Both the position numbers and the translations under genes were made by a program. Of a DNA stretch of 64,000 bases, positions 11,201-14,200 are shown piece by piece. The first letter of the stretch is position 1, and every line of letters begins with the position of its first letter. Source of the stretch: Malacoraja senta (lineage: Eukaryota); contig CM075989.1 in assembly GCA_038087875.1 (NCBI GenBank), positions 6,386,001 through 6,450,000 of the forward strand. Reading direction: 5' to 3'. A model generated the notes under the pieces. That model was not told where the DNA came from, did no database searches, and worked only from the letters and a program-made list of their open reading frames with translations.

Positions 11201-14200
11201 CTGCTGCCCCTGGTGAGGGCCCTGTAGTTCCTGGTCAATATCCACCTGCGGCGAGAGGATTGATCAGCACCCACGTCCCGATAAAACCACAGCGCAGTCG
11301 TGCGTCAAACACCGCGTCGCGCCCTGACACTATGACCAGCCGATGCTGGCGATACGACACCCAGCACAGTGAAGCATATTGATTAGTAGGACTGGATGTT
11401 ACAATCCCTAACGTTCTTCACCACAACTGACACCCGGTATTCTTGGGGGTGACCACTAGGTGATTTTGCTACCAATCACACACATCTTCAGTTGTGTACC
11501 TCAACGTCACTGGGTGTTTCGGCCTTTTATCACAAGACACCCTCGGTCGAGGCAGGCCCCCACCGCAGGGTGATCAGACCTGGGTGTGTGTTTTATGGTT
11601 AGCCTCTAGATGGTCACGTGGCAGCCCAGGCAGCATCTTTTCTCTTCAGCCACAGCCAGTGACTGCTCCATTCTGCTTTTTCCCTTCCATCTTCCTCTCT
11701 ACCGCTGACTGTGGCTGGTTGGGCTCTGGACCCGTGTCCGTTGGTGGGGCAGTACTTGGTCAAGCTTCACCTGGGGTGCTGATACCCTGTGGACGGTGGT
11801 GGTTAACCTGCCACTAGGCTTCACTCGACTGATTCGGCCTACCTCTGAGAAGGTAATGGATACGTAGAGACCGGGTCTCCATCCCTCAGGTTTCAGGTGA
11901 GAGGGAAATGATTTAATAGGAACCTGAGGGACACCTTTCTCACACAGAGGGTGGTGGGTATATGGGACGAGCTGCCAGAGGAGGTGGTTGAGGCTGGTGC
12001 CATAACAATGTTTAAAAGACATTTTGATAGGTACATGGATAGGAAAGGTTTAGAGTGATATGGGCCAAACACGAATTAGCATAGATGGAGCGTCTTGTTC
12101 GGCATGGGCAAGTTGGGCCAATCTATTCCTTGGAGCGCAGGAGGATGAGGGGTGATCGTATGAAGGTGTACGAAATCATCAGAGGAATAGTTTGGGTAGG
12201 TGCAGAGAGTCTGTTGCCTAGAGTTGGGGAATCAAGAACCAGAGGACATGGGCTCAAGGTGAGGAGGGAATGATTTAATAGGAATCCGAGGGGTAACTTT
12301 TTCACACAGAGAGTGGTGGATGTATAGAACGAGGTAGCTGTGGCAAGTATTATCCCAACCCTTAAGAAACATTTAGCCAGGTGCATGGATAGGGCATGCT
12401 TAGAGGGATATGGGCCAAATGCGGGCAGGGGGGACTAGTGTAGCTGGAACATGGTCGGTTTGGGCAAGTTGGGGTGAAAGTCCTGTTTCCACCCTGTATC
12501 ACTCTATGTATCTGTACACTGTGGAGGGTTCGATTCCAATCAAGTGTAGTCTTTCCGCTGACTGGTTAGCACGCAACAAAAGCTTTTCACTGTAGCTCAG
12601 TGCACGAGACGAGAAACTGAAGCGTTTGGATGTGACACAGACTCTGTCTTCTTGCAGACGTTGAAGTCACCCTTGCCTGTAGGACGCGGAGGCTGGGGGG
12701 ACTTACTTGTAATACTGCTTCTGTGAGGCTGACATCTCCACCCGTAGAATCTGTTCAACTTTGGCAGGGAGGGATTTCTCCACGTCTTTCTTCACACGCC
12801 GCAGCAGGAAGGGCTCCAGGACCCTGTGCAGGCTCTGGAATCCATTCTCCCGCCCTTTGCCGTGCTCTTCTTCAAAGTCCTCCCAGGAATTAAACCTGGA
12901 GGAAGACACAAGCCAGAGTTCAGGCAGGTTCTGCAAACCTTCCCGACACACAACACGCACCCTCTCAGTGCCACAACTCAGTCTCTGGGATTTAACAAAA
13001 ACTGCTGCAACAGCATCTCGATTAGACTAGCAAACGGGCGGAGGAATGGTCAAGGAGGAATCAATTGTGTGATATTAAGGCCTGGGGCGGGAAGGGAGGG
13101 TTGGGGCAGGTGCAGGGAGGGAGGGGCGGGTGGGAGCGGTGCGGGGGGCGAGGGTGGAGGAGGGGCGGAGAGGGAGGTTAGGGGAGGTGCGGGAGGTTGG
13201 GGGCGGTGCAGGAAGGCCTACTTTTCAGGCATGATGAAGTGCAGGAGTGACCAGAGCTCCTTCAGTGAGTTCTGCAGCGGCGTGCCCGTGATCAGCATGC
13301 GGTGGTTGGAGCGGAAGTCGATCAACGTGCGGTAGAGCAGCGAGTCGTCGTTCTTCAGCCGGTGAGCTTCATCAACGCCCAGGAACGCCCAGTTTATATT
13401 CCCCAGCACGTTCTGAACAAGAGAGGCGAGAGTATTAGCAGCAAGCCGCGGCAGCCACTTCACCACAGTGCAGAGACCAACAACTGCAGAGGCTGGGTCA
13501 CCACCAAACGACACAGAGTGCTGGAGTAACTCAGCAGGTCAGGCAGCATCTCTGGAGAACTAGGATAAGGTGACGTTTCGGGTCGGGATCCTTCTTCAGA
13601 CTTCACCACAGGGGGTCAGCTAAGTCACACAGCATGCAAACAGGCCCTTCCGCCCAACTTGCCCTCGCCGACCAACATGCCCCATCTACACTAATCCCAC
13701 CTGACTGTGTTTGGCCCCTATCCCTCCAAACCTACCCTATCCATGTACCTGTCCAAATGTTTTTTTACATATTGTGATAGTACCTGCCTCAACTACCTCC
13801 TCTGGCAGTTCGTTCCATACACCGGCCACTCTTTGCGTAAAAATGATGCCCTTCTGGTGAAGGCATGTTGGCCTTCATAACAAGAGGAGTTGAGTATCGG
13901 AGCAAAGAGGTCCTTCTGCAGTTGTACACGGCCCTAGTGAGACCACACCTGGAGTATTGTGTGGTTTTGGTATCCATCTGAGGAAGGACATTCTTCCTAT
14001 TGAGGGAGTGCAGCGTAGGTTCACGAGGTTAATTCCCGGAATGGCGGGACTGTCAAATGTTGAAAGAATGGAGCGACTGGGCTTGTATACACTAGCATTT
14101 AGAAGGATGAGAGGAGATCTTATTGAAACATATAAGATTCTTAAGGGATTGGACAAGCTTGAGGCAGGAAACATGTTCCCGATGTTGGGGAAGTCCAGAA

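What the first reader, a model, noticed from the sequence alone, without database searches (positions are those of the whole stretch)
11479..11542. Scrambled-order hammerhead ribozyme in a HERO-like element, sense to CHD2 pre-mRNA
Seen on the minus strand: GGGTGTC^TTGTG-ATAAAA-GGCC-GAAACACCC-(15 nt)-CACAA-CTGAAGA-TGTG. Stem III (GGGTGT/ACACCC), stem I (TTGTG/CACAA), the GUC site, GAAA and CUGANGA are all present. The strand order is cleavage strand, GAAA strand, CUGA strand, which is none of circular types I/II/III and needs a pseudoknotted fold. Stem II is weak. It lies just 3' of a HERO-like terminal peptide. Known: non-circularly permuted hammerheads have been reported in nature; I cannot confirm whether this family was covered. 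Inference: a 3'-end-processing ribozyme; if active it would cut CHD2 intron 17 between 11536 and 11535, about 290 nt upstream of the exon-18 acceptor.
Basis: partly seen in the sequence, partly recalled or inferred. Interest (0 to 1): 0.85.

Follow-up and report, generated by a model that had tools for sequence, protein, structure and literature searches.

The report
Four-way-junction hammerhead in HERO retrotransposons
This is one copy of an RNA motif conserved behind the protein-coding region of a widespread family of animal retrotransposons: it carries the full catalytic core of a hammerhead ribozyme wired in a way not found in the papers searched, and it likely cuts the element's head-to-tail transcripts into single units that are then copied as circles.

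Summary
The hammerhead core, stem I and stem III are there in cleavage-GAAA-CUGA order. The motif recurs 736 times in this genome (control 0) and lies behind the ORF in 37 of 59 related retrotransposons from metagenome contigs (controls 0). The strand before GAAA pairs instead with a strand upstream of the cut site, and the strand after CUGANGA with another one further upstream. With a hairpin between them they form a perfect four-way junction, supported by strong covariation. One clade shows the hammerhead's U3-A8 tertiary swap. The motif does not define the element's 3' end. Full-length copies sit in head-to-tail arrays longer than one unit (130 junctions against at most 3 free starts), and repeats within one locus share variants ten times more often than repeats of different loci. 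This fits cutting into monomers and reverse transcription round an RNA circle. Cleavage and circles are untested. The CHD-intron copy is a truncated passenger with private junction changes. The scan had not noted this before.

The parts
11376..11859 (-). 5'-truncated copy (484 nt) of an 849-nt internally deleted HERO-like element (family A)
   Evidence: BLAST boundaries shared with 29 other genomic copies at about 95% identity; unit length and protein remnants
11614..11679 (-). C-terminal peptide remnant of the retrotransposon ORF and its stop codon
11587..11593 (-). 5' strand of helix PA (pairs with the strand after CUGAAGA); one arm of the four-way junction
   Evidence: covariation in 32 families; one mismatch in this copy
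11561..11586 (-). Hairpin P0 (loop often UGAUCA); second arm of the junction
   Evidence: closing pair sits directly at the junction in 31 of 32 families
11559..11560 (-). Two extra G between P0 and stem II', private to this copy
   Evidence: 0 of 50 other family-A motifs have them
11554..11558 (-). 5' strand of the true stem II (starts with G10.1')
   Evidence: G-C at position 1 in 29 of 32 families; compensatory changes at positions 2-5
11543..11552 (-). 5' strand of the stem III extension and GA of a predicted kink-turn
   Evidence: helix 93.6% paired; tandem GA with 3-nt bulge in 18 of 32 families
11536..11542 (-). Stem III 5' strand and GUC triplet; predicted cut between 11536 and 11535
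   Evidence: sequence; analogy with the hammerhead core
11531..11535 (-). Stem I 5' strand
   Evidence: four pair types at positions 1 and 2 across families
11521..11525 (-). Stem II 3' strand (ends in C11.1)
   Evidence: pairs with 11554-11558
11512..11520 (-). GAAA core (G12 A13 A14 A15.1) and stem III 3' strand
   Evidence: invariant GAAA in alignments A2 and A3 (rows were selected for it)
11499..11511 (-). Predicted kink-turn bulge and GA, then 3' strand of the stem III extension
11492..11496 (-). Stem I 3' strand
11485..11491 (-). CUGANGA core (C3-A9)
11478..11484 (-).
   Evidence: pairs with the upstream strand, not with the strand before GAAA
11246..12705 (-). Host intron of a CHD1/CHD2-type gene in which the copy lies in sense orientation (5' limit approximate)

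Best explanation
The 3' UTR of HERO-like retrotransposons holds a conserved hammerhead core in cleavage-GAAA-CUGA order whose stem II is replaced by a four-way helical junction, and it likely self-cleaves to cut head-to-tail transcripts into monomers that close into circles used as the template for insertion. Shown: the core, seven helices with covariation, the clade-wide position behind the ORF, and insertions that end at one fixed point but run on past one full unit. Inferred steps: (1) the junction stacks stem II' under the G12-A9 and A13-G8 pairs although A9 and G10.1 are no longer neighbours in the chain, and a kink-turn bends the stem III extension back towards stem I; (2) a transcript started in the upstream repeat is cut at both motifs; (3) four strands of the motif lie on the 5' side of the cut, so the two ends of one monomer can re-pair into the same fold and be ligated, or be held as a nicked circle; (4) the element's RT primes at a fixed internal point 85-200 nt past the cut site and copies round the circle, giving 5'-truncated pieces, unit-plus-partial copies and arrays of two or more units. 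The window's copy is a truncated product of the 849-nt non-autonomous form and most likely a passenger in the intron.
For: 736 matches against 0. 37 of 59 metagenome relatives have it behind the ORF, controls 0 of 59 twice. A scan that asked only for helices returned the complete core in 23 of the 27 best-scoring loci, none with G17; 1 of 68 coding-region controls scored as high (cut-off chosen after seeing the scores). Stem II' and PA were not asked for by the descriptor, yet own partners beat cross-family partners in 10000 of 10000 permutations, with 30 and 61 co-changes on the protein tree of 31 families at 31-80% identity; 90% of cells paired and 205 double changes against 66 shuffled. N7 and N17, the free core positions, change 13 and 14 times on the tree. 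U3-A8 in two related sequences and U3-G8 in their sister group match the known C3-G8 tertiary pair (PMC3088659 section 8). 130 head-to-tail junctions against at most 3 other starts in family B; 40 in the window's family; 5 of 9 loci chosen for two ORFs hold two or more full units plus a partial; repeats of one locus share 0.325 of their variants against 0.032 between loci; 14 of 30 family-A loci read through the cut site; 12 of 79 metagenome contigs show the same head-to-tail order.
Against: No cleavage, ligation or circle was observed. Genomic 5' truncations do not pile up at the cut site (1 match against 2 at a control position), which fits a sealed circle but equally no cleavage. No hammerhead with a chain break between A9 and G10.1 turned up in the papers read; Eckert et al. 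assume that block cannot be interrupted. The MFE fold of the window copy forms neither stem I nor stem II' (both are pseudoknots) and is not unusually stable (z -1.38, 16 of 200 shuffles as good). In a Penelope-like element, hammerhead cleavage was dispensable for insertion in vitro and no reads ended at the cut site (PMC11167929). Only 4 of 25 within-locus pairs carry three or more shared variants, and gene conversion or assembly polishing could also homogenise repeats. 22 of 59 relatives had no strict match; many look like decayed copies by eye but were not all resolved. The U3-A8 change is one evolutionary event.
Confidence: 0.6

Rival explanations
1. The motif is an active ribozyme but no circle is made. 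It trims read-through transcripts slowly or partly, as in Penelope-like elements; linear multimeric RNA is primed internally, and the RT restores the upstream repeat by jumping from the 5' end of a cut monomer to a 3' end held next to it.
For: Internal initiation and partial-tandem structure are shown for a Penelope-like element with a hammerhead (PMC11167929). All genomic patterns can also come from multimeric templates or precise jumps. Single copies begin within a few nt of the cut site (L185; L224).
Against: Without a circle or precise jumping, array length should shrink each generation, yet arrays of more than two units exist. Single starts at the cut site are about what chance gives.
Confidence: 0.22
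2. The fold is not catalytic now. It is a hammerhead-derived structure kept as the binding site for the element's RT/endonuclease protein, like the structured 3' UTR of R2.
For: It lies where such elements carry their protein-binding RNA (general knowledge of R2). Genomic copies read through the site and do not truncate there.
Against: A binding site has no reason to keep exactly the hammerhead's invariant letters while freeing N7 and N17, or to show the U3-A8 swap.
Confidence: 0.1
3. The four-way junction is an off state. The active form is an ordinary type-SGC hammerhead with a minimal stem II (a G one base after A9 pairing with C11.1), reached by refolding.
For: G two positions after the core is common (24 of 32) and can pair with position 11.1 in 25 of 32 families. 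Published type-SGC sequences have an extra U before G10.1 (supplement of PMC10085705).
Against: Further pairs of that stem are at chance level. Seven of 32 families cannot form even the first pair, and that G is explained by its partner in PA (32 of 32 paired).
Confidence: 0.06
4. The arrays arise by new copies inserting at the 5' end of old full-length copies, and the ribozyme has some other job.
For: Some RLE elements are occasionally found in tandem (PMC4640811).
Against: Free 5' starts are almost absent (at most 3 against 130), and repeats within a locus share private variants.
Confidence: 0.02

Closest known systems
Type-SGC (HRIMA-1) and type-CSG non-circularly permuted hammerheads (Eckert et al. 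2023, PMC10085705)
   Same: Same core letters, same reversed cyclic order of blocks, short linker from stem I to stem II, pseudoknotted fold.
   Different: There CUGAnGA runs straight into stem II (at most 1-2 inserted nt). Here that link is opened by two helices forming a four-way junction, and all three inter-block links are closed. Theirs come from metatranscriptomes or soil DNA and none but GCS-1 from a known organism; this one sits in animal retrotransposons.
Penelope-like elements with type I hammerheads in pseudo-LTRs (PMC11167929; PMC4209133 seen in listing only)
   Same: Autonomous retroelement, partial-tandem insertions, ribozyme in the repeated end, priming inside the RNA (shown there, inferred here).
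   Different: Different RT clade and endonuclease (GIY-YIG there; restriction-like motifs here) and a canonical circular permutation there.
Retrozymes (LTR type III in plants; non-LTR type I tandems in animals; bioRxiv 10.64898/2026.07.22.740005 passages, PMC4918200 listing)
   Same: Monomers cut out by ribozymes at each repeat, circular RNA, tandem genomic copies.
   Different: Non-coding, non-autonomous, canonical hammerheads. Here the unit is about 3.96 kb with a 1181-aa ORF, plus an 849-nt deleted derivative.
R2 and other non-LTR elements with 5' HDV-like ribozymes (PMC13580325 passage; PMC3774820 listing)
   Same: RLE-type non-LTR retrotransposon that uses a self-cleaving RNA to free itself from a longer transcript.
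   Different: HDV class at the 5' end of a linear unit with a defined start. Here a hammerhead core behind the ORF, and no free 5' start.

Membership tests
Hammerhead ribozyme | Core letters CUGANGA, GAAA and UH | tested here: met
   Window copy; 23 of 27 best helix-only hits
Hammerhead ribozyme | Stems I and III around the cut site, with covariation | tested here: met
   (pairing was required by the descriptor; the variety of pair types was not)
Hammerhead ribozyme | Stem II closed by a G10.1-C11.1 pair next to G12 | tested here: met
   G-C in 29 of 32 families, but with G from an upstream strand
Hammerhead ribozyme | A9 joined directly (0-2 nt) to the 5' strand of stem II | tested here: not met
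   Strand after A9 pairs at chance with the 11-strand and pairs instead in helix PA
Hammerhead ribozyme | C3-G8 tertiary pair | tested here: met
   C-G in most, U-G and U-A in one clade; one event only
Hammerhead ribozyme | Self-cleavage 3' of H17 | not testable with these tools
   Needs an in vitro assay; only contigs were available for RNA runs
Hammerhead types I/II/III (Rfam models) | Circular block order; match to Rfam covariance models | tested here: not met
   No hammerhead match in window 9000-14000 at E up to 10; no match of any family in 6 related loci at E up to 1
Type-SGC hammerhead (Eckert 2023) | Block order S, G, C | tested here: met
   definition
Type-SGC hammerhead (Eckert 2023) | Block C intact: stem I strand, CUGAnGA, stem II strand in one run | tested here: not met
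RLE-type non-LTR retrotransposon | Single ORF with RT, zinc motifs and restriction-like endonuclease | tested here: met
   1181-aa ORF, RVT_1 E 2e-22; zinc and PD..D/E motifs read by eye and named from recall
HERO clade | Placement with named HERO elements in an RT tree | not tested
   No named HERO sequence was available (one search found none in a supplement). The label rests on recall of the C-terminal motif and on dispersed, non-rDNA insertion, which fits the clade description in PMC4640811
Retrozyme-like circular RNA replication | Ribozyme in every repeat of head-to-tail arrays | tested here: met
Retrozyme-like circular RNA replication | Covalently closed RNA monomers in cells | not testable with these tools
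   The circle junction would be identical to the genomic tandem sequence
Kink-turn | 3-nt bulge followed by tandem G-A, A-G pairs between two helices | tested here: inconclusive
   Consensus pattern in 18 of 32 families; consensus recalled; fold not tested

The most novel reading that the evidence does not exclude
A whole clade of autonomous animal LINE-type retrotransposons has no true 5' end and replicates through a circular RNA. The circle is made and sealed by a seventh natural hammerhead topology, in which the catalytic strand is cut loose from stem II and rebuilt by a four-way junction, and the RT makes concatemeric insertions by rolling round it.
Probability: 0.5. Interest if true: 0.95.

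Novelty: new variant of a known kind. Interest (0 to 1): 0.88.

Why it matters
Eckert et al. listed six possible hammerhead permutations on the premise that the CUGAnGA-stem II link cannot be broken, and found the non-circular ones almost only in environmental sequence. This motif breaks that premise, lies in animal genomes in hundreds of copies, and is invisible to Rfam models and to SGC patterns, so genomic ribozyme counts are too low. It also gives a testable account of how an R2-related autonomous retrotransposon copes without a defined 5' end: through a circular or nicked-circular RNA and rolling reverse transcription, so far a theme of retrozymes and viroids. A ribozyme that holds both RNA ends by four helices could be useful for making circular RNA, and an RT that copies round a circle is of interest for gene insertion tools.

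Tried and rejected
Rfam found no hammerhead. The idea that the ribozyme makes the element's 3' end was rejected. Truncations at the cut site are not enriched. Sequencing runs: no RNA holder listed; all were contigs with guessed RNA status. One 3921-nt contig of run X3 spans the motif and the head-to-tail junction, which shows neither strand, ends nor circularity, so it is not counted as evidence. A pattern scan of viral contigs gave 7 matches, none near a related protein within 1.5 kb and none with a clean stem I by eye. The tool that fetches DNA around named proteins was closed, so the 3' UTRs of the named fish, lamprey, amphioxus and mollusc proteins could not be read; the host species of the metagenome contigs are unknown. 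Wide-window partner searches often chose the wrong upstream register; one search used narrow windows, and PA was still mis-picked in a few families. In alignment A3 six rows are one column off for P0 and stem II', which lowers those counts. Ten literature searches found no report of a ribozyme in HERO elements or of this topology; subscription journals, Repbase Reports, patents and bioRxiv supplements are outside the library. Three look-ups in earlier scan findings found nothing on this motif.

Full report
Observation. The predicted cut lies between 11536 and 11535, 290 nt before an exon of a CHD1/CHD2-type gene (CHD2 from recall). Rfam finds no hammerhead there. The motif lies in a 484-nt insertion, 11859-11376, with 1096 candidate relatives in the genome, the 40 scored being 94-95% identical apart from the window itself. 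Copies share one 3' end about 160 nt past the cut site and differ at the 5' end. The full unit is 849 nt: the 5' UTR and N-terminal coding region of an RT element fused to its last 19 codons and 3' UTR.

Spread. A pattern fixing stem III and the core but leaving stem I free gave 736 matches in the genome and 0 for the reversed pattern; the first 100 listed show three stem I versions, each complementary. One family (B) has an intact 1181-aa ORF with an RT domain. Its relatives in protein databases come from fish, lamprey, amphioxus and molluscs. A divergent family (D) in the same genome shows the motif, whole or with point changes, in 12 of 13 loci aligned; one is truncated inside it. An unbiased route, fetching metagenome contigs by the protein alone, gave 79 loci at 37-79% identity; 72 reached the C-terminus, 59 had at least 200 nt beyond it, and 37 of these 59 carry the motif, against 0 of 59 on the opposite strand and 0 of 59 reversed. 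The HERO label is from recall; no named HERO sequence could be compared.

The real fold. 46 motifs (2 more dropped for short flanks) were clustered into 32 families. Stems I and III show up to four Watson-Crick pair types per position; their pairing was required by my descriptor, the variety was not. The strand before GAAA pairs instead with a strand that starts 21-27 nt upstream of the cut (22 nt in 23 of 32), beginning with a G opposite C11.1 in 29 of 32 (4.72 against 3.44; 0 of 10000 permutations). The strand after CUGANGA pairs with a strand further upstream (helix PA; 7.11 against 5.26; 0 of 10000). Between those two upstream strands lies a hairpin, P0, whose closing pair sits directly at the junction in 31 of 32 families. 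So core, II', P0 and PA form a four-way junction with no spare bases. Stem III continues through a 3-nt bulge with tandem GA (18 of 32; a kink-turn pattern, recalled) into a further helix. On a 22-row alignment the 34-pair model has 90% of cells paired and 205 double changes against 66 shuffled, and slid partners fall to 36-42%.

Is the core catalytic? Not shown. Three signs point that way. A scan asking only for helices returned the complete core in 23 of its 27 best loci, never with G at 17, while 1 of 68 coding controls scored as high (cut-off set afterwards). N7 and N17, the positions free in hammerheads, change often on the tree. One clade goes from C3-G8 through U3-G8 to U3-A8, the tertiary swap described for natural hammerheads (PMC3088659, section 8 read). 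Against: no published case of a break between A9 and G10.1 was found, and the window copy's MFE is unremarkable.

What it does for the element. Insertions do not end at the cut site. In family B, 14 of 15 fetched loci (chosen for paired matches, apart from one family-D locus) are a full 3.96-kb unit preceded head-to-tail by a 5'-truncated extra copy of 299-3040 nt, and all end at the same point about 200 nt past the cut. Genome-wide, 130 unit starts follow the element's own 3' end and at most 3 do not. Five of 9 loci chosen for two ORFs hold two or more full units plus a partial. Repeats within a locus share 40 of 123 variant positions, repeats of different loci 323 of 10201; the signal comes mostly from 4 of 25 pairs. 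The window's family has 40 junctions, and 14 of 30 loci examined read through the cut site, three of them probably one duplicated insertion. Twelve of 79 metagenome contigs show motif then N-terminus (collapsed assembly can produce this). Truncations are not enriched at the cut. The simplest mechanism is a monomer cut out at two motifs, closed or held as a circle by the four strands on the 5' side of the cut, primed internally and copied round. A linear multimer with template jumping remains possible; for a Penelope-like element, internal priming was shown and hammerhead cleavage was dispensable in vitro (PMC11167929, passages).

The window copy. [quoted passage not shown] Whether it cuts the host pre-mRNA is open, and nothing suggests a host function.

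Literature. Eckert et al. 2023 (PMC10085705; parts 3-5 of 8, passages and supplement passages read) define types SGC, CSG and GCS, assume block C cannot be interrupted, searched RefSeq, and report none in known organisms but GCS-1; 'retrotransposon' occurs only in a reference title. Passages of PMC13725137, PMC7650587, PMC4640811, PMC13580325 and bioRxiv 10.64898/2026.07.22.740005 mention no HERO ribozyme. Ten searches found no report; paywalled papers, Repbase Reports and patents were not searchable.

Verdict. A real, clade-wide, strongly covarying RNA structure that works like a hammerhead but fails the block definition of every described type: a new variant. Rough odds: structure as drawn 0.95, self-cleaving 0.85, circular or nicked-circular template about 0.6. 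Interest 0.88.

Noticed in passing
L064:2941-3070 and family-A unit start (L214): The 5' UTR just after the head-to-tail junction holds three or four short hairpins with GAAA-like loops, each preceded by UGAC, conserved between families A and B and visible in metagenome contigs L129, L140 and L173. Possibly the priming or protein-binding signal.
   Followed up: partly
window 11564-11576 (P0 loop): The P0 loop is often the self-complementary UGAUCA (UGGCCA in some families), which could allow loop-loop dimers.
   Followed up: no
L236, L239, L242 (viral contigs): Three related contigs match the core pattern in S-G-C order with an intact stem III and a possible upstream partner for the 11-strand, but a poor stem I and no related RT nearby.
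   Followed up: partly
L067 and L074: In these two duplicate loci the upstream repeat joins the ORF start with the 3' tail and 5' UTR deleted, an exception to the fixed junction.
   Followed up: no
L002, L004, L006, L011-L014, L018-L022, L027-L030: About half of the best family-A hits share long flanks, so one insertion was amplified inside a larger repeat.
   Followed up: no
window 10500-10900: Tandem array of a roughly 59-nt repeat derived from a common short interspersed element; source of the weak mir-5595 Rfam hit.
   Followed up: no
L224, L229, L230, L232, L233: These lack the internal deletion junction of the 849-nt unit and are probably the autonomous parent of the window's family.
   Followed up: no
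P0052, P0067: Database protein models from fish run through the ribozyme region in translation, so some annotated 'proteins' include this RNA motif.
   Followed up: no
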